A stretch of DNA of 25,451 nucleotides from a virus (Duplodnaviria > Caudoviricetes). The position numbers were made by a program, and so were the translations under genes. Location of the stretch: positions 1 to 25,451 of the IMG/VR virus record IMGVR_UViG_3300034349_000025; one strand, 5' to 3'. The notes under the pieces were generated by a model. It did no database searches. It was given only the letters and a program-made list of their open reading frames with translations, and had not been told where the DNA came from. Each line of letters begins with the position of its first letter. The stretch's first letter is position 1. This document shows positions 5,747 to 22,230 of the stretch, one piece after another.

Positions 5747-7783
5747 ATGGAAACGCCCGAGAGCTTAAAACTGCTGCACGATTCGTACGCTGTCCTACGG
5801 GATACAATCGTGCACCTAAACAAACGGTACCACGAAGACAGTGTCAGTGAAGTCACTGACCCCGTGTATGATGAGCTGAAGAAAGAACTCATCCAGTACG
5901 AAGAGGTTCTGGGCATTGATGACCCTACCTCTCCGACCAAGACCATCGGTTACACCACTGGCTCTAACGGGTTTGAGGTGGTCAAGCACATTACCCCGAT
6001 GCGCAGCCTCGACAACGTCTTCAACATTGAAGAGTTGATGGAGTGGGATGACACGATCATCGCCGAGGGTGCCGAAGTTGTAATGGAGCCCAAGGTTGAC
6101 GGTCTCAGTCTGAACCTGCTGTACCTCAACGGCTTCCTGAAGTCGGCTACCACGCGTGGTGACGGTTTTGAAGGCGAGGATGTAACCCAGAACGCAATTA
6201 ATGTCTGGGGTGTGCAGACGAGTCTTGGCAACAGTGTTCACCCTGACAGCCGCATTGAAGTCCGCGGTGAGGTCAAGGTTGACAAGAAGGTCTTCAAAGA
6301 GATCAACGATGCCAACCGTGAAGCGGGTAAGAAGACGTATGCCAACCCTCGCAACTATGCAGCAGGGTCGCTACGTCTGAAAGACCCTGATGAGGTGATC
6401 CATCGCCGCCTGAGTTTTGTGGCGTATGACTACATCCTCGACTTCCCGGAGAAGTACTTCCTCGGTACAGGTTCCCATGACCTGCTGTATCAGTGGGGCT
6501 TCAAGACCACCACCCCGGTCCCAGTGATCTTTGACCGCATGAGGCTTACTCGTGAAGAGCGTAAAGCACTCTACGAGCAAATACTGATTCGTGCGGCTGA
6601 ACAGCGTTCTGAGTGGCCGTATGAAATTGACGGCATGGTCTTCAAGGTCGGTCAGTTGGCGCTTCGACAAGCCATGGGGTCTCGCAGTAACTCTCCTCGG
6701 TGGGCTACGGCGTACAAGTTCCCGGCTGAAGAAGCAGTCTCTATCTTCTTTGGGGCTAAGTTCCAAGTCGGTAAGAGTGGTGTGATTACACCCGTGGCTA
6801 CTATCCGTCCTGTCCACATCTGTGGCGTGACCGTGAGCAGTCCGACGTTGCACAACTTTGCTGAGATCGAACGTCTAGGTCTCATGGTGGGCGACCACAT
6901 CATCGTTAGTCGTCGGGGCGATGTGATCCCGAAGATCGAATCCGTGATCACCGACTTACGTTCTGCTGAATGTATCCCATTGGAATACCCAACACACTGT
7001 CCGTCGTGCGAGTGTGAGCTGGTGCGTGAGAACCACTCGCTTTACTGTCCGAACAACAGCGGGTGTCCAGACCAAGCCGTGGCACGTCTGGTGCATTTCG
7101 TGAGTCGTGATGGCATGAACATCAAAGACTTGGGTGAAGCGGGTATCACCGAACTGGTGAAGCATGGGTTGGTAGGATCGTTCTCGTCCCTGTTCTACTT
7201 GGGCGATGAAGATCTCAAGTTGGTGTACCCAAACTCAGAGATCACTCGCAAGAAGGTACTGAAGAACATCCAGGCTGCGAAGACTCAGCCACTGCGTAAG
7301 GTCATCTTTGCTGTAGGGATGCCGGGTGTAGGGGAAGGGACAGCTGAACGGTTGGCTATGAACTATAAAACGTTCGAGCAGATCTGTGACGCTACCTTCG
7401 AAGAGCTGAAAAGTATCCCGGACATTGGCCCAGACACGGCTCAAGCTGTTATTGATGCGTGTGCAGCTAACCGTCGTGAGTATTTATCTTACGACAAGCT
7501 CTTCACTTATGTAGAGGATGCACCGGCTGACCCTTCTATCGTCCGTGACTTGGAAGGTAAGCGAGTGGTTGTGACAGGGGGTTCGTTTGACGGCCTGAGC
7601 CGCAGTCAGATGGAAACCAATGTCAAAGCACGCGGTGGGCGGTTGACCTCTACCATCAGTCCTAACTTGGACATTCTTTACGCCGGTACTGGAGCAGGTC
7701 CTGAGAAGGTCAAGAAGGCTATCAAGCTGGGCTTCGTACAAGACGGCATTATGTTTGTGAATCCACAGGGGATCTCAGAATGA
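5747..7783 (+). CDS. ligA: NAD+-dependent DNA ligase
   Basis: KVDG adenylation motif, EVRGEV, NPRN.AAGSLR, DGMVFK, AYKFPA, OB fold, CPSC...C...C zinc finger, HhH repeats, C-terminal BRCT. Confidence 0.97.
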   Translation: METPESLKLLHDSYAVLRDTIVHLNKRYHEDSVSEVTDPVYDELKKELIQYEEVLGIDDPTSPTKTIGYTTGSNGFEVVKHITPMRSLDNVFNIEELMEWDDTIIAEGAEVVMEPKVDGLSLNLLYLNGFLKSATTRGDGFEGEDVTQNAINVWGVQTSLGNSVHPDSRIEVRGEVKVDKKVFKEINDANREAGKKTYANPRNYAAGSLRLKDPDEVIHRRLSFVAYDYILDFPEKYFLGTGSHDLLYQWGFKTTTPVPVIFDRMRLTREERKALYEQILIRAAEQRSEWPYEIDGMVFKVGQLALRQAMGSRSNSPRWATAYKFPAEEAVSIFFGAKFQVGKSGVITPVATIRPVHICGVTVSSPTLHNFAEIERLGLMVGDHIIVSRRGDVIPKIESVITDLRSAECIPLEYPTHCPSCECELVRENHSLYCPNNSGCPDQAVARLVHFVSRDGMNIKDLGEAGITELVKHGLVGSFSSLFYLGDEDLKLVYPNSEITRKKVLKNIQAAKTQPLRKVIFAVGMPGVGEGTAERLAMNYKTFEQICDATFEELKSIPDIGPDTAQAVIDACAANRREYLSYDKLFTYVEDAPADPSIVRDLEGKRVVVTGGSFDGLSRSQMETNVKARGGRLTSTISPNLDILYAGTGAGPEKVKKAIKLGFVQDGIMFVNPQGISE

Positions 7784-8229
7784 AACTGACTGTAAATGAT
7801 GTTGTGGCAAAAGCACCTGACCTTACACGTGCACTGGGTTGGGGCGAAGTGCGATTGGCTCCGGGCTTGTTCCGTGACCTGATCACTCTCTGCGCTCGTA
7901 AAAGCGAAGCGTCCAAGTACGCGTTCGCTGTGAACGTGGAGATGGCCAACTTCATCAACGGCGACGACCAGTGCGTCATTACGCTGAGCGGCGAATACCG
8001 TCCAGCAGTGCAACAAGGTTCGCGGATCGGTTCCTACCAAGGTTCCGACATGCACGTGTTCGACCAAGTCACCGACAAGGATTGCTTGATGATCCTCTGC
8101 CTGGACGATGAAGACAACGTGGTGCACATCGAAGTCAGTCTGCTCAAGCCGGCTGAGAACCAGGTCAACTTGGTGCCAGTGGTGACCCGCGATAACGTGA
8201 AAGCGTTGAACGGTAACTTCACCGAGTAA
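7780..8229 (+). CDS. Hypothetical protein
   Basis: 149 aa, ATGA-coupled to the ligase gene. Confidence 0.8.
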   Translation: MKLTVNDVVAKAPDLTRALGWGEVRLAPGLFRDLITLCARKSEASKYAFAVNVEMANFINGDDQCVITLSGEYRPAVQQGSRIGSYQGSDMHVFDQVTDKDCLMILCLDDEDNVVHIEVSLLKPAENQVNLVPVVTRDNVKALNGNFTE

Positions 8230-8246
8230 TCGCTGTCAGTGTAGGG

Positions 8247-8287
8247 TTCAATTCGAATTGTTTTGAACCCTACATTGTACATGTGAA
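8247..8287 (+). promoter_or_regulatory. Putative phage promoter (TTCAATTCGAA subclass)
   Basis: TTCAATTCGAA at 8247, TACATT at 8271, GTGAA at 8283. Confidence 0.65.
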
Positions 8288-8315
8288 TCTAACCCACTGT
8301 TCAAGGAACTGCATC

Positions 8316-17056: not shown

Positions 17057-17090
17057 CATATAGCCCGGTGACAAGCCGGGCTATATGCCG
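17057..17090 (+). terminator. Hairpin + TATGCCG element
   Basis: CATATAGCCCGG-TGACAAG-CCGGGCTATATG then CCG. Confidence 0.7.
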
Positions 17091-17109
17091 CCAACCTGAG
17101 AGACCAACC

Positions 17110-17631
17110 ATGACCACGATAGTTTATCGCGCTGGCATCCTGGCTTCTGACTCGTCTTCTGTAACGGGCATGAGCATTACTTACATCACGTACCAGCGAA
17201 AGATCCAGACGAGTTCTTGCAAGCGCTTTGCATGGGGCTTCTCCGGTAGCGTGATTGATCCTGACTACCTGAAGCGTGCCGAGGTACTGCTTCTGTCTCA
17301 CCTGATGGATGTCCGCTCTAAGGGTACCGAGAAGGTACTGTTTTCCAAAGAACTGATCGAATTGATTGACGGTCGGGACTTCATCATCATGACCAACGAT
17401 ACGGTCTATGTTCGACGTAAGTCGGAAGAGACCAGCCTAGTCAAGCTTCTCCCTGAGGAGTTTGTGGCAGTAGGGACTGGCAAGATACTCGCGACGGCTT
17501 CATTCATCGCCGGTAAGAATGCCAAGCAAGCGGTAGCATTCGCGATGGAACACGATTACTACACGTACGCCAGTAAGATCCTTGAGATCAAACAGGCATC
17601 CCTTAAACCACTGCCTACGGAGATCAAATAA
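17110..17631 (+). CDS. HslV/proteasome-beta-like Ntn hydrolase (putative Thr peptidase)
   Basis: Start MTTIVY gives an N-terminal Thr. GILASDS, RKI, GFSGS, AVGTG and AKQAVAFA..HD.YT match the Ntn/proteasome-beta pattern. Confidence 0.75.
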   Translation: MTTIVYRAGILASDSSSVTGMSITYITYQRKIQTSSCKRFAWGFSGSVIDPDYLKRAEVLLLSHLMDVRSKGTEKVLFSKELIELIDGRDFIIMTNDTVYVRRKSEETSLVKLLPEEFVAVGTGKILATASFIAGKNAKQAVAFAMEHDYYTYASKILEIKQASLKPLPTEIK

Positions 17632-18194
17632 TGTCCAGTGTTGTACTCTACAGCGAAGAACACATTGCGTTCTCCAAAGACATCATCAAGTCCAGCTATA
17701 CCCTCATTCGCATGCCACTCGATGCGTGGATGTGTGAGCTGGGCCTCGTCGTACCATTGAGCACCTCGAGCTTCGGCGCTGTGCGTACCTTCGATGGCAA
17801 AGTGACTGGCATCAAAGACCAGCACATCCACACTGTCGGGTTGTTGATCCGCCTCGATGGCTCCATCTGCAACTTCGCCTTTGATTCCATGCTGGGGTTT
17901 GTGGACAAGGAGCGCCATCGTTATAGCTACGAGCTCCCCACAGGCCCAGGAGTGATGTGGTGTCAGAGTGAGCATGACGCTTACGAAGAGAAGGCTTACG
18001 CCGCTCTGCTGGCCACTGAGAAGCGTGAAGACGTCCTCAAGAACCTTGACATCGCCGACCTGTTAATGGCTCGTCAGATCAAGTGGTACAAGATGGATGA
18101 TCTGGTGGTTGAGATCAACGCCATGCACAAAACCAAATACCCTAACCACGTCATCTATACGGCCAAGCCAAAGGAGAAGACCAATGCAGTATGA
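17631..18194 (+). CDS. Hypothetical protein, possible degenerate Ntn-fold paralog
   Basis: TAATG coupling. N- and C-terminal patterns parallel those of the preceding protein. Confidence 0.7.
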   Translation: MSSVVLYSEEHIAFSKDIIKSSYTLIRMPLDAWMCELGLVVPLSTSSFGAVRTFDGKVTGIKDQHIHTVGLLIRLDGSICNFAFDSMLGFVDKERHRYSYELPTGPGVMWCQSEHDAYEEKAYAALLATEKREDVLKNLDIADLLMARQIKWYKMDDLVVEINAMHKTKYPNHVIYTAKPKEKTNAV

Positions 18195-18717
18195 TTACCA
18201 CAGCGAGTACCCTGTCACCCTGAAATACGACCCTGAGAACGGGGTGACAGGAGTCTGGTACCAGAACAACATGAAAGGCATCGAGCAGATGCTTGAGGAA
18301 CTGGAAGCCCATGGCCACGGCGAAGAGTTGAACAAGATCCGTCAGTACATGGGGGATACTCCAGACTTCGCGAAGAAGATGGAAGCAGGTCGTCGGTGTC
18401 GTCATCTGGTTGCCAACCTGAAAGCCATGAACGCCTTTCACGTGGTTGAGATCGTGGGCAAGGTAGTCTTCGAACCGTTGTCTAACGTTAACTGGGCAGT
18501 AACCGGTGCAACGTCCATCGAGTTCGAGATCCTTAATGACGAAGATCCTGAACTCGATGCTCGCTACGCAGTCCATCTGGATGGCGAACGTGCAGTCGGG
18601 CTGTCCAAGTGGAACGGTCAGGCTTGGGTGACAACTGATGAAATCATCATTCCACACAACACTGACATGCACGAACGCTTCGAAGGGAAAGAGTGTACCA
18701 CCACTCCGTGTAAATAA
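18184..18717 (+). CDS. Hypothetical protein (177 aa)
   Basis: ATG 18184 behind AAGGAG, overlaps the previous stop. Confidence 0.8.
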   Translation: MQYDYHSEYPVTLKYDPENGVTGVWYQNNMKGIEQMLEELEAHGHGEELNKIRQYMGDTPDFAKKMEAGRRCRHLVANLKAMNAFHVVEIVGKVVFEPLSNVNWAVTGATSIEFEILNDEDPELDARYAVHLDGERAVGLSKWNGQAWVTTDEIIIPHNTDMHERFEGKECTTTPCK

Positions 18718-18736
18718 TTCCATGATATCAATGTGC

Positions 18737-19534
18737 TATGAGTGAAAAGATTGCCGGTGGTTTGTAAAAGGATGTTCTGAATGCCGTCTCTGTTCTCGGC
18801 ATTGCGTGACGTGTTTAGGACGCTCAGGGTGTCCTACGAGCAATGGAGGGCGCAAGTTCTTGCGTCGCTCCGCGCTGATTGGATACGCGTCTACGCAAAG
18901 CCGATGATCCCGCGAAACCTGCCCATGCCGTCCGGGAGACGGCGAACCCACGACCATAAGGCGGTCGTCAGGGGACGCCTCTAACGTGATTGCGAAAATA
19001 TAACTCCTACTCCGAGGGAAAACGTATCCCTCTAAGGACCTTGAACTGAGCTTTGCCGCAATCGTTTGTGGTATCGCAATGTGCTTCAGTAATGCCGGTG
19101 CTATTGGGTATAAACAACCCGAAGCCTGCCATGTTCAACTTGCACCCACGGGAGTGAATAGCGATGCGTCGCTTTACACAGTCCCGGTTGCGGTCACGTT
19201 CGTTCGACATCGTCCGGGTAAAACCTTCGAGTCGCCCGAACAAGCCGCCGTCCAGCGAGTTGATCTGTTCACACTGCCACGCCGCATGACGAGTACTACG
19301 GCCCCAAGCCCAGGGTTCCAGACCCTGTAAGCCCAACGGCACCCGCGTCAACAATCAAAACGGATTAAGTTCCGCCTTATAAGGGATAGCCATCCCTCAT
19401 CGCATCCCTCCTTAGGTCAATGCGAGCTGTATCAATGTGCCCCTTCTCACTATCGACGAACTGATTGATCCGGCATACGTGCACGGTGATACAGAAGAGT
19501 CTTAGATGAGTGGGGCCATTCCTTTCTTATGCCG
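18737..19534 (+). ncRNA. Candidate large structured non-coding RNA (~800 nt), class not recognised
   Basis: No convincing gene and more than ten stems, with G-U pairs favouring the + strand. Bounded by TATG (18737) and TATGCCG (19528). Boundaries are approximate. Confidence 0.65.
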
Positions 19535-19581
19535 TGATGATATGAAGTACCTTTCTTTTTTGTGTTCTTAGGGAACCCGTC

Positions 19582-19989
19582 ATGGCTGACACCGATACAC
19601 ATGTCTTTGGTAACTTAGACACTCGACACGTAGGTAGACGTAAGAGGATGTTGCTCGCTCCATTCATGTACCGTGACAGGGACTATGGTCCAATCACCGC
19701 ACCGATGGGCAACATCACGGACTTTGCCTCCATTGAAACCCTTCGTGATATTGGCTTCTTCATCATCTATGCTCTGCTGACGGGGTATGGGGATAAAGGC
19801 GCTACCATCCATGATTATCTCTACGGCGGTGGTCTTCCTGATTCTGGTGCTTACATCTCTCGTGCAGACGCCGACAGTGTGTTCTACCGAGCCCTTCGTA
19901 AAGAAGGTGTGGCCAAGTGGAGAACCATGCTGTTCTATAGCGGCGTACGTCTCTTCGGGGGTAAACGCTGGAAAGGCAAACGCAAATGA
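19582..19989 (+). CDS. DUF1353-family protein
   Basis: TDFASI...A.IHDYLY...SRADAD.VF..AL...GV...R....Y.GVRLFG signature. Confidence 0.85.
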   Translation: MADTDTHVFGNLDTRHVGRRKRMLLAPFMYRDRDYGPITAPMGNITDFASIETLRDIGFFIIYALLTGYGDKGATIHDYLYGGGLPDSGAYISRADADSVFYRALRKEGVAKWRTMLFYSGVRLFGGKRWKGKRK

Positions 19990-20285
19990 CTCCAGTCGTT
20001 CAAGTAACCAGTAGCATCAACATCGACCGTGGTAACTCGGCTAAGTGGTTAGAGGTGTACCGCAACGCTAACGCACTCAGAATCCTCATGGAGACGTGGA
20101 AGATCGCTCCAGTGGAAAAGCTAGTGGGTGATGAGTTTGAAGCCGTACGTGTGCTCCTATCGCACATCATGGCCTCATCTGGTCACTTCATCGACGCAGT
20201 GCAAACTGCTTCAACCATGGACCAACTGTTTGACATCCACGCTGAGTTTCTTGCTGTAGCCAAGTCACGGTGTCCAACCATGTGA
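19986..20285 (+). CDS. Hypothetical protein
   Basis: 99 aa, ATGA-coupled, followed by a hairpin. Confidence 0.75.
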   Translation: MTPVVQVTSSINIDRGNSAKWLEVYRNANALRILMETWKIAPVEKLVGDEFEAVRVLLSHIMASSGHFIDAVQTASTMDQLFDIHAEFLAVAKSRCPTM

Positions 20286-20323
20286 GCATAGAGGGAGAGC
20301 CTGATGGCTCTCCCTCTATGCCG
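20286..20323 (+). terminator. 16-bp hairpin + TATGCCG element
   Basis: GCATAGAGGGAGAGCC-TGAT-GGCTCTCCCTCTATGC then CG. Confidence 0.75.
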
Positions 20324-20326
20324 TAT

Positions 20327-20367
20327 GTCGATTCCAATTATTTTCAGCAATACATTGTACAGTTGAA
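20327..20367 (+). promoter_or_regulatory. Putative phage promoter (TCRATTCSAA subclass)
   Basis: GTCGATTCCAA at 20327, TACATT at 20351, TTGAA at 20363. Confidence 0.6.
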
Positions 20368-20416
20368 TAGAGAGACTAATCTTTCTACTCTTAACCTTAT
20401 CTTTAGGAGATTCAAC

Positions 20417-21241
20417 ATGAGCGTTCTCGCCTGCATCGCTATTCGCACCGTCGCTAGAGTCGTACTGGTTCGTCACCTCTTCGGTGGCGTTCGCGGTACA
20501 GTGATCGACGGTGGTCGTCTTCCTCTGTCGCCAGTGGAAGAACTCAAAGAACAACTCCGTGCCAGCATCCTCGAACGTCGGGGTTGTGTGGCTACGGAAG
20601 AGGTTCCTCAAATGGAACCGATCGAAGTGGTTCTGCCACCGAACTTGGATCTCAAAGAGATGGCTCAGAAACGAGGCCACCTCAAAGGCGTCACCACTAT
20701 CGATGTTCATCATCGTGCAGTGTTGAAACCTGAAGTCCAGCTGGAGATCGTTCAAGGTACTCCTGCTGAGAAAGGCGTGACTGTTGAAGTCATTGCTGAC
20801 GACGCAGTTCTGCCAGAGACTCCAGTGAATGCAGAGATCGTGATCTTCGGACCACGTGCTGGTGAACTGGAAGCAGCTGCTCAGGCAGAGATGCCATATG
20901 CTGGTCTCGAGTTCGAAGTCGCATCATTCGAGAAAGCTGACCTGCGCTTCTGGGATAACTTCTTTGCACGTATCGCACAGAAGTCGCATGTACTGGACAT
21001 GCTGGACGATGCTCACCTACTTGGTCTGAAAGACAAGTACAGCAAAGGTTACCATCCGATCCGCGAAATGGGTACCGACGTATACGGCATCGTGCATGTT
21101 ACCAAAAATAGCATGAATGCCCTCTATCTCACTGACCGTGAGTCTGGTACATTCCGTACCGTAACCGCAACCAAACGCTTCAATGAAGCAGACGAGGTAG
21201 GAGTCCTCGAAGCCAAGGCCTTCCTTAACGGACGGTACTGA
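20417..21241 (+). CDS. Hypothetical protein (274 aa)
   Basis: ATG 20417 behind TAGGAG. The upstream extension in the ORF track runs through a hairpin and promoter. Confidence 0.8.
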   Translation: MSVLACIAIRTVARVVLVRHLFGGVRGTVIDGGRLPLSPVEELKEQLRASILERRGCVATEEVPQMEPIEVVLPPNLDLKEMAQKRGHLKGVTTIDVHHRAVLKPEVQLEIVQGTPAEKGVTVEVIADDAVLPETPVNAEIVIFGPRAGELEAAAQAEMPYAGLEFEVASFEKADLRFWDNFFARIAQKSHVLDMLDDAHLLGLKDKYSKGYHPIREMGTDVYGIVHVTKNSMNALYLTDRESGTFRTVTATKRFNEADEVGVLEAKAFLNGRY

Positions 21242-21309: not shown

Positions 21310-21702
21310 ATGAAACCATTGAAACAAGCAATCTACTCCTCCCGCACCGCTGATAAGTTCGTAGTACGTCTGCCGGATGGCATGCGTGAACGTATCGCGG
21401 AAGTGGCCCGTACCCACCACCGTTCCATGAACAGCGAAATCATCGCTCGCCTGGAACGCACTCTGGTCGCTGAAGTTGATGCCGACAAGAGCAAAGGGTC
21501 GGACAAGCCTGTGGAGTCTGTGGAACTGAACGGCCAGTGGATTCCACAGGTCGGTCAACTGATACGCACGCCTCACGGCGCTGTGCGTACCATCCACAGC
21601 TTCATCGCTTACGAGGATGGGTCGATCGAGGCTCGTTTCCCCGGCATGATCCCTGAGTACATTCCACTCGGTGATCTCAAGCCGTTCGTACTGAACCGTT
21701 AA
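21310..21702 (+). CDS. amrZ: AmrZ (AlgZ)-like Arc/ribbon-helix-helix transcription regulator
   Basis: [49 protein letters not shown] is nearly identical to the Pseudomonas AmrZ N-terminal domain as I recall it. The C-terminus differs. Confidence 0.9.
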
Positions 21703-21713
21703 GGAGACGGAAT

Positions 21714-21762
21714 AGATAGGGCGCCGTGAGGCGCCCTATCTCTGCCTTCCTTTTTTCTTTGT
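21714..21762. terminator. Terminator between convergent genes
   Basis: AGATAGGGCGCC-GTGA-GGCGCCCTATCT followed by a pyrimidine/T tract. Confidence 0.8.
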
Positions 21763-22230
21763 TTACCAGTCGTACGAGCGGTTGTTCACGCTGACCACCT
21801 TGACCTGCTTACCTGCGAACCATTTGGCGATGTCGACCTTCTCTTTGCTGACGATCGAATCCTTGATGGTCTCTTGGGTCTTGTACTCGTCCTTGATACC
21901 GTTTGTAGCGTTGAGCACGAGACGCCAGCAGTCTGTGTGGTCAATGGTATACAGCCAGACGTCAAGTGCCTTCATCTCGTTCGTAGTGGGCACACGACCC
22001 TTGTCGATCTCGATGGTGATCTTGTTACCGTCAGACTTGAAGCGAGAAACGTTGAAGTGTTTCTCCAGAGTGGAAGCAAACCCCTGTGAGACGGCCTCTT
22101 CCATAGACGAAGCAGCGTACAGCCATTCGTTGGATTCAGTCCCGTCCCACTGTACCAACTTGCCCGAGTGTTTGATCCCCGGCATTAGCTCGTCTTGACT
22201 ATAGCCTGATCCATGGTAGAGCTTCTTCAT
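21763..22230 (-). CDS. Possible ADP-ribosyltransferase-fold protein
   Basis: LYHGS...WLYAAS...WLYTID...DEY spacing resembles H-Y-x class ARTs. It is the only convincing minus-strand gene and has an AGGGA RBS. Confidence 0.55.
   Translation of the reverse strand: MKKLYHGSGYSQDELMPGIKHSGKLVQWDGTESNEWLYAASSMEEAVSQGFASTLEKHFNVSRFKSDGNKITIEIDKGRVPTTNEMKALDVWLYTIDHTDCWRLVLNATNGIKDEYKTQETIKDSIVSKEKVDIAKWFAGKQVKVVSVNNRSYDW

What the first reader, a model, noticed from the sequence alone, without database searches (positions are those of the whole stretch)
18718..19581. Candidate ~800-nt highly structured ncRNA in an otherwise gene-dense phage genome
Seen: an ~860-nt gap, far longer than any other here, with no RBS-supported ORF. 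It is tiled with stems: AATGCCG/CGGCATT (18780-18803), TAGGACGC/GTGTCCTA (18816-18836), GGAG-GGCGCAAG/CTTGCGTC-G-CTCC (18845-18871), GCCGTC/GACGGC (18927-18943), ACGACC/GGTCGT (18950-18968), GATTGCG/CGCAATC (18988-19063) enclosing GAGGGA/TCCCTC (19014-19032), TTGGGT/ACCCGA (19104-19122), GAACA/TGTTC (19238-19270), CAGGGT/ACCCTG (19311-19327), AGGGAT/ATCCCT (19382-19397), TCGCAT/ATGCGA (19400-19425) and CTGTATCA/TGATACAG (19427-19494). The non-Watson-Crick pairs I found are G-U on the + strand, which points to a + strand RNA. It begins near a TATG (the phiKZ late-promoter core) and ends at TATGCCG, the motif that closes other transcription units here. Known: large ornate ncRNAs such as GOLLD and ROOL occur in phages. 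I found no tmRNA, RNase P, group I or group II signature. Inference: a large phage RNA of possibly undescribed class.
Basis: partly seen in the sequence, partly recalled or inferred. Interest (0 to 1): 0.9.

Follow-up and report, generated by a model that had tools for sequence, protein, structure and literature searches.

The report
Folded two-gene jumbo-phage messenger RNA
The apparently gene-free 860-base gap in this jumbo-phage genome holds two small conserved reading frames, one opening on an unusual start codon, inside a conserved stem-rich sequence, so it is likely a folded messenger RNA that rations two small, predicted membrane-directed proteins rather than a new giant non-coding RNA.

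Summary
All 13 stems are at the stated places, the + strand folds better than shuffles, substitutions in a relative avoid breaking pairs, and no Rfam family matches. But the stretch is not non-coding. ORF1 (18781-18984, 67 aa) has an AAGGA site and ATG. ORF2 (19046-19330, 94 aa) likely starts at CTG behind a TAAGGA site. A relative at about 50% identity (L160) has the same promoter and gene order, both frames, TTG in the CTG column and the same 94-aa length. Protein-level selection is shown; three hairpins stay nearly invariant even at synonymous sites, so RNA is selected too. ORF2 begins with a signal-like hydrophobic stretch. The cultured phage pPa_SNUABM_DT01 likely has a far counterpart (synteny, promoter, loops; no significant model hit). 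The promoter type also precedes tRNA arrays and may be middle, not late. Best reading: a structured two-gene mRNA that likely keeps two envelope-acting proteins scarce; their function is inferred. The scan noted the two-ORF reading three times before on other DNA; the start codon, signal-like segment, promoter class and cultured counterpart are added here.

The parts
18710..18740 (+). Phage promoter: GTAAATAATTCC box at about -24 plus TATG with predicted +1 at G18740
   Evidence: Same motif and spacing before the counterparts in G001, L160 and DT01 and before the tRNA arrays of G001 and G002; +1 rule and middle box from PMC4666361 passages. Start site inferred, not mapped.
18768..18772 (+). 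Ribosome-binding site AAGGA of ORF1
   Evidence: 8 nt before ATG; TAAGGA 6 nt before ATG in L160; AAGGA in DT01
18781..18984 (+). ORF1, 67 aa, basic amphipathic N-terminal helix, variable stop (58-84 aa in relatives)
   Evidence: profile match to L160 ORF1 E 2.7e-6; 11 of 15 identical residues outside the hairpin use different codons; hydrophobic moment above 98% of shuffled stretches
18796..18904 (+). Predicted three-way-junction domain inside ORF1
   Evidence: Pair probabilities 0.88-0.99; one compensatory pair 18810/18889 in L001
18947..18973 (+). Conserved hairpin with ATAAGGC loop (encodes HDHKAV)
   Evidence: Identical in L160 including all 6 codons; same loop on a different stem in DT01; matched by distant contigs in X5 and X17
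19014..19038 (+). Hairpin GAGGGA/TCCCTC followed directly by the TAAGGA ribosome-binding site of ORF2 (19033-19038)
   Evidence: CTCTAAGGA kept in L001, L160 and DT01
19046..19330 (+). ORF2, 94 aa, predicted CTG start, hydrophobic signal-like N terminus, C terminus PGFQTL
   Evidence: TTG in the same column and 94 aa in L160; 13 of 20 changes against L001 synonymous, P 0.001; 12-residue hydropathy 2.56, reached by 0.4% of shuffled stretches; model of low confidence, pLDDT 37, helix 4-18 only
19062..19292 (+). Predicted long stem with nested junctions spanning most of ORF2
   Evidence: Consensus fold with L001, compensatory pair 19077/19276; a long stem between the same codons in L160, pair-by-pair register not cleanly mapped
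19311..19334 (+). Invariant hairpin CAGGGTT-CCA-GACCCTG followed by the ORF2 stop in TAAGCC
   Evidence: 7 of 7 pairs identical in L160, no synonymous change in the last 8 identical codons; matched by distant contigs in X5 and X17
19361..19374 (+). Conserved hairpin CGGA-TTAAGT-TCCG in the 3' untranslated part
   Evidence: Loop TTGAGT in L160; loop TTAAGT on a changed stem in DT01
19400..19425 (+). Hairpin whose loop shows CCTCCTTAG, complementary to the ORF2 ribosome-binding site
   Evidence: Loop unpaired, duplex -10 kcal/mol; heptamer in DT01; loop kept on a changed stem in X17; absent from L160
19427..19494 (+). Last long stem, variable among relatives
   Evidence: 6 of 8 basal pairs kept in L001; different sequence in L160
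19505..19534 (+). Weak hairpin and TATGCCG: possible 3' end or promoter of the DUF1353 gene
   Evidence: similar run kept in L160

Best explanation
This is a conserved two-ORF unit of a phiKZ-like jumbo phage, likely transcribed as one heavily folded messenger RNA whose structure and weak second start codon would keep two small, predicted envelope-acting proteins scarce. Shown: own promoter motif, two reading frames under protein-level selection, and hairpins under RNA-level selection. Inferred: the phage non-virion RNA polymerase starts at G18740; ORF1 is read from AUG and ends shortly before the second ribosome-binding site; ORF2 is read from CUG (UUG in L160, AUC likely in DT01) at a few percent of AUG efficiency; both frames lie in long stems, and the invariant loops likely bind a protein or RNA partner that sets when the message is read or how long it lasts. 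ORF1's amphipathic helix would sit on the inner membrane and ORF2's hydrophobic N terminus would send it into or across it. The likeliest job, about 0.3 on its own and by analogy only, is control at the cell envelope such as superinfection exclusion or lysis timing.
For: Relative L160 (1 of 85 pattern hits besides L001's own contig, nhmmer E 1e-24) was found after the CTG start had been predicted (note) and has TAAGGA + 6 nt + TTG in that column, a 94-aa frame and the same flanking genes. ORF1 window/L160 and ORF2 window/L160 alignments beat 1000 of 1000 shuffles; first 30 aa of ORF2 likewise, first 40 aa of ORF1 P 0.023. ORF2 against L001: 13 of 20 changes synonymous, null 6.15, P 0.001; in run X5 4 of 5 changes in ORF2 are synonymous, 2 of the 5 being new changes. 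All uncompensated one-base indels that were listed lie outside both frames. Two ordered frames of these lengths arise in 0.7% (window) and 0.5% (DT01) of 5000 shuffles. Structure: pairs broken 9 against 17.5 expected (P 0.005) and 15 against 23.8 (P 0.007) on the + strand; - strand 0.047 and 0.12; best of 14 coding controls 0.022. Folding z -4.98 L001, -3.86 L160, -4.85 DT01. Near-cognate starts give 1-2% of AUG in E. coli (bioRxiv 063800, passages).
Against: No transcript end, translation or protein was observed. ORF1 shows no synonymous excess against L001 (10 of 31, P 0.30) and its stop varies. The middle of ORF2 is poorly conserved and has no family or confident fold. The N terminus lacks the basic residue of a standard signal peptide in the window and L160. 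The DT01 frames show no amino-acid similarity to these (P 0.20-0.87). L001 also folds well on the - strand (z -4.43). Only 1 to 3 two-sided compensatory changes were counted against L001. Three gap letters in run X17 could not be placed (2 of 14 indel rows not shown). The envelope role has no direct evidence.
Confidence: 0.62

Rival explanations
1. Dual-function RNA: the message is translated, but the folded RNA also acts on its own, for example by pairing its exposed CCUCCUUA loop with ribosome-binding sites of other messages, or by serving as a scaffold or protein sponge through the invariant loops.
For: Promoter type shared with tRNA arrays (2 sites in 172,837 bases of G001, 3 in 154,261 of G002, 1 in 265,520 of DT01); hairpins invariant at synonymous sites; a 170-nt folded 3' part with a conserved loop; loops outlast the protein sequences in DT01. 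RNAIII is the precedent (PMC12612679, passages).
Against: The anti-SD heptamer is absent from L160; no target or partner was found; the same promoter pattern lies inside an ordinary gene of Phabio; cis control explains the same loops.
Confidence: 0.23
2. Ordinary two-gene operon of fast-evolving small proteins; the stems are a by-product of GC content and only a few local hairpins matter (stability, termination).
For: Local folding z-scores are not outstanding in the window; 4 of 13 stems are not in the ensemble; two-sided changes are few; covariance models did not pick out DT01.
Against: Four lineages fold at z -2.7 to -5.0; pair-breaking changes are avoided more than in any of 14 coding controls; synonymous sites are frozen in two hairpins at 50% divergence.
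Confidence: 0.1
3. Large ornate non-coding RNA of a new class, like GOLLD or ROOL, with chance reading frames.
For: Size, folding, no Rfam match; tRNA-type promoter; an RNA-library contig of run X8 covers 18743-19516 (weak).
Against: Both frames, both ribosome-binding sites, the start column and the length of ORF2 are kept in L160 with synonymous divergence; synonymous excess in ORF2; listed indels avoid the frames.
Confidence: 0.05

Closest known systems
GOLLD and ROOL RNAs (Rfam families; bioRxiv 2024.12.08.627333, passages)
   Same: Phage-borne, 600-800+ nt, many stems, own promoter, no assigned function.
   Different: Carries two conserved reading frames; no Rfam match; lies about 29 kb from the tRNA array in G001; no kissing loop shown.
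Dual-function RNAs, above all Staphylococcus aureus RNAIII (PMC12612679, passages)
   Same: Long multi-hairpin RNA with a 5' frame for a small amphipathic membrane-acting peptide and a folded 3' part; translation possibly held back by the 3' end.
   Different: Phage-encoded, two frames, near-cognate start; no trans target shown; no sequence relation. The passages read named no phage-encoded member.
T4 small envelope proteins Imm, Spackle and RI (recalled, no call)
   Same: 80-100 aa phage proteins with a hydrophobic N terminus acting at the envelope: size and topology analogy for ORF2.
   Different: No sequence or fold match; those genes are not known to me to lie in a conserved folded RNA.
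phiKZ small non-coding RNAs from UTRs (PMC10914365, passages)
   Same: Structured RNAs of a phiKZ-like phage.
   Different: Those are 70-200 nt; this unit is about 760-890 nt and coding; no BLAST match in 50,697 phage records.

Membership tests
GOLLD / ROOL large ornate ncRNAs | Match to the family covariance model | tested here: not met
   No hit at gathering score or E up to 10; none in the DT01 stretch
GOLLD / ROOL large ornate ncRNAs | No conserved protein-coding frame | tested here: not met
   Two frames conserved
GOLLD / ROOL large ornate ncRNAs | Covariation-supported pseudoknots or kissing loops | tested here: inconclusive
   CTAAGGA/TCCTTAG invariant where present and absent from L160; ATAAGGC/GCCTTAT broken in X5
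GOLLD / ROOL large ornate ncRNAs | Very high abundance and self-assembly into cages | not testable with these tools
   Only contigs were available; their depth cannot rank RNAs
tmRNA | tRNA-like domain and tag frame without a start codon | tested here: not met
   ARAGORN and Rfam negative; both frames have ribosome-binding sites
RNase P RNA, group I and group II introns | Conserved catalytic core; for introns an interrupted host gene | tested here: not met
   No Rfam match; flanking genes are whole and separate in L001 and L160
Dual-function RNA (RNAIII type) | Encodes a small protein | tested here: met
   Comparative evidence only; translation not observed
Dual-function RNA (RNAIII type) | RNA acts in trans independently of the protein | not testable with these tools
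   No target search possible without the host; anti-SD loop not universal
Sec signal peptide (ORF2; rules recalled) | Hydrophobic core near the N terminus | tested here: met
   12-residue hydropathy 2.56 window, 2.70 L001, 2.30 DT01, 2.33 L160
Sec signal peptide (ORF2; rules recalled) | Basic N-terminal residue and A-x-A cleavage site | tested here: inconclusive
   DT01 has K2 and ANA; window has AGA but no basic residue; L160 has NTA and no basic residue. No predictor was available.
phiKZ late promoter | TATG at +1 without the middle-promoter box at -24 | tested here: inconclusive
   TATG present, but with a conserved box resembling AAanTTACc; two phiKZ middle promoters also carry TATG (PMC4666361)

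The most novel reading that the evidence does not exclude
An ornate phage RNA that is delivered by its own translation: a stable, tRNA-promoter-driven structured RNA whose conserved loops are the working part, while its weakly initiated signal-peptide frame tows the RNA-ribosome complex to the host inner membrane. That would explain why loops, frame layout and N-terminal hydrophobicity persist out to DT01 while the protein sequences do not.
Probability: 0.12. Interest if true: 0.85.

Novelty: new variant of a known kind. Interest (0 to 1): 0.5.

Why it matters
It shows that an 'empty' structured gap in jumbo-phage genomes can hide genes that gene callers truncate or miss (ORF2 is called from an internal ATG in the protein collection, and is absent from DT01's annotation). 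It gives a testable case of overlapping RNA-structure and protein selection in a phiKZ-like phage, with a cultured phage on Pseudomonas that likely carries a counterpart. If the RNA also acts on its own it would be a phage dual-function RNA. I found no description of it in the searches (listings; one search returned no paper); subscription papers and most supplements are outside these searches.

Tried and rejected
BLASTN of the region against 50,697 phage and 72,556 plasmid records: no match; the DT01 region matches only itself. IMG/VR scans: HslV protein none; 19-mer only L001's contig; three-part pattern none, because it excluded L001's variant loop; GATTAAGTTC...TCCTTAG 57 hits, 1 real; ORF1 profile 7 loci, 1 real and 6 weak 24-residue matches not followed; 661-aa neighbour only L001's contig. 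Metagenome scan gave one DUF1353 locus without the motifs; prokaryote genome scans none. Covariance models from two near-identical sequences hit the DT01 place only at E 9.1 and 3, below other chance hits; model R1 had one hairpin set one column off. Collinear-word chain to DT01: 14 of 1132 control windows and 2 of 500 shuffles scored as high; coarse tree distance P 0.04 for the first domain, 0.27 for the second. So DT01 homology is likely, not proven. Pairing of the ATAAGGC loop with GCCTTAT 19374-19380 rejected: X5 changes 19378-19379 with the loop unchanged. A frameshift joining ORF1 to ORF2 rejected: a stop at 19001-19003 separates them in the window. SD/anti-SD pairing kept only as a lead: absent from L160. 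Promoter pattern in five other jumbo phages: 0 in PA1C, Noxifer, Moabite; 1 in Phabio inside a gene; 2 in phiKZ not examined; 0 in PaBG. RNA-library contigs: X8 has one 853-nt contig over 18743-19516, X4 has one running through the flanks; neither shows ends, strand or level. ESM Atlas hits under 0.9 for both ORF2 versions. A profile search of the 1.84-billion protein set could not be run, so distant protein relatives remain open. The JPTI55 paper's supplement could not be read and may hold that phage's annotation.

Full report
Setting. The window is a 25,451-base virus record of a phiKZ-like jumbo phage. Its ligase is closest to Pseudomonas phage pPa_SNUABM_DT01 (43%), and the close relative G001 encodes split RNA polymerase beta subunits (27 large frames were scanned, chimallin was not identified). 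DT01 has virion and non-virion RNA polymerases (PMC8541153, passages). The stretch lies between an HslV-like gene with two unknown genes and a DUF1353 gene.

The observation. The + strand folds better than shuffles (z -2.95; -2.7) and better than the - strand, though 150-nt windows are not exceptional for this genome. Rfam and ARAGORN find nothing. The statement that no frame has a ribosome-binding site is wrong, and the TATGCC at 19528 lacks the strong hairpin seen at 7 other intergenic sites.

Relatives. L001 is 89% identical over the region. L160 came from a scan with the ATAAGGC hairpin: of 85 hits two were real, L001's contig and L160 (E 1e-24); L160 aligns at 49% and has the same flanking genes. 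DT01 has a 1-kb stretch at the same place, after HslV and before the homologue of 19986-20285. It folds at z -4.85, carries the only copy of the promoter pattern in 265,520 bases (the pattern was drawn with this site in view), and shows the loops ATAAGGC and TTAAGT on stems of different sequence plus CCTCTAAGGA and TCCTTAG in order. Word-chain P is 0.004-0.012 and covariance models are not significant, so I call it a likely counterpart.

It is coding. Earlier notes of this scan pointed to two frames; I tested that. ORF1 starts 41 nt after the predicted +1 in the window, 39 in L160 and 42 in DT01, each behind AAGGA. Against L001 it shows no synonymous excess (10 of 31), but against L160 11 of 15 identical residues outside the hairpin use different codons and the profile match is E 2.7e-6. 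ORF2 is called from ATG 19079 by gene finders, yet the eight L001 changes in 19054-19077 are five synonymous changes plus I to L and A to V in that frame. That led to the prediction of a start at CTG 19046, 7 nt behind TAAGGA (note). L160, found later, has TTG in that column, 6 nt behind TAAGGA, and a frame of the same 94 residues with a similar N terminus and the same last six residues. From CTG, 13 of 20 changes against L001 are synonymous (P 0.001). In DT01 an in-frame ATC lies 9 nt behind TAAGGA and opens a 108-aa frame with a lysine, a hydrophobic run and ANA, but no sequence similarity to the others. Listed uncompensated indels all avoid the frames; three gap letters of X17 could not be placed.

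It is also selected as RNA. With structure taken from one sequence and changes from the other, broken pairs are about half to two thirds of expectation on the + strand (P 0.005 and 0.007), stronger than the - strand and than all 14 coding controls. The codons under the ATAAGGC hairpin (6 of 6) and under the hairpin before the ORF2 stop (8 of 8 identical residues) have no synonymous change at 50% divergence. L160 forms a long stem between the same two ends of ORF2, but my gap-free mapping left 6 of 18 pairs broken and 2 changed on both sides, so this is no formal covariation test. Distant contigs in X5 and X17 match only these two hairpins, 337 bases apart against 340.

Promoter. The box at about -24 and the TATG are both conserved while the bases between vary. 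The same pattern precedes the tRNA arrays of G001 and G002 and two ORF-poor stretches of G002. It resembles the phiKZ middle box, and two phiKZ middle promoters also carry TATG (PMC4666361, passages). In Phabio the pattern lies inside an ordinary gene. Timing is therefore open.

How it most likely works. Shown: promoter motif, two selected frames, selected hairpins. Inferred: one transcript; ORF1 read from AUG; ORF2 read weakly from a near-cognate codon (1-2% of AUG for CUG and AUC in E. coli, bioRxiv 063800, passages); long stems over both frames and a hairpin against the second ribosome-binding site hold output down; the invariant loops bind a partner. A 3' loop complementary to that site is exposed in the window and kept in DT01 and X17 but missing in L160, so it is a lead only. 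ORF1 has an amphipathic basic helix in this clade but not in DT01; ORF2 has a hydrophobic N terminus in all four and no fold or family. An envelope role such as superinfection exclusion or lysis timing is my best guess, by analogy with T4 proteins that I recall and did not test.

Comparison and novelty. It is not GOLLD, ROOL, tmRNA, RNase P or an intron. It works most like a structured message, possibly a dual-function RNA of the RNAIII kind (PMC12612679, passages), but action in trans is untested. Papers seen as passages: bioRxiv 2024.12.08.627333, PMC10914365, PMC13282480, bioRxiv 2024.08.29.610337 and PMC12595487 (supplement unreadable). Searches were seen as listings and showed no description of this element. 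The scan noted the two-frame reading three times on other DNA.

Verdict. A real, conserved, structured two-gene unit; not a giant non-coding RNA. New variant of a known kind, interest 0.5. The boldest reading not excluded, an ornate RNA towed to the membrane by its own signal-peptide frame, has probability about 0.12.

Noticed in passing
G002:C1:100126-100550 + (L034:126-550): About 395 nt behind the same promoter type, not covered by any ORF of 90 aa or more, folding z -2.43 (1 of 40 shuffles as good), ending in a strong hairpin and U run, no Rfam hit: a separate candidate non-coding RNA of another jumbo phage.
   Followed up: partly
G002:C1:63527-64135 + (L032:3527-4135): Same promoter type, TAAGGA and ATG 39 nt after +1, an 87-aa frame with a hydrophobic N terminus, a loop with TAAGGT, then about 270 nt poor in ORFs; folding not significant (z -1.09). 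Possibly an analogous cassette.
   Followed up: partly
G001:C1:142806-142835 - and G002:C1:66431-66460 +: The tRNA arrays of two jumbo-phage contigs start at the same rare promoter pattern as this RNA; useful for finding stable RNAs in this clade.
   Followed up: partly
window 5627, 11080, 13368, 17084, 20317, 24281, 25104: Strong hairpins directly followed by TATGCC; 32 of 52 TATGCC sites in G001 follow a hairpin. Could be terminators joined to late promoters.
   Followed up: partly
window 17068-18717: The HslV-like gene and its two neighbours are far more diverged from L001 (47% and 30% identity; the third is 76% to one copy and has a second, distant copy next to the RNA) than flanking genes at 79-95%, suggesting exchange or duplication of this block.
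   Followed up: no
window 21641-21790 and 20291-20440: The two lowest local folding scores of the window (z -6.4 and -5.0; 8141-8290 also -5.0); an inverted repeat links about 21706-21749 to the opposite strand in L001.
   Followed up: no
L006:12720-14196 and 17367-18861 (PaBG 116153-117629, 120800-122294): Two unannotated gaps of about 1.5 kb near the tRNA cluster of phage PaBG.
   Followed up: no
L032:6893-7014 and 7571-7656: Two tRNA-like matches in G002 found by Rfam but not by ARAGORN, one 122 nt long.
   Followed up: no
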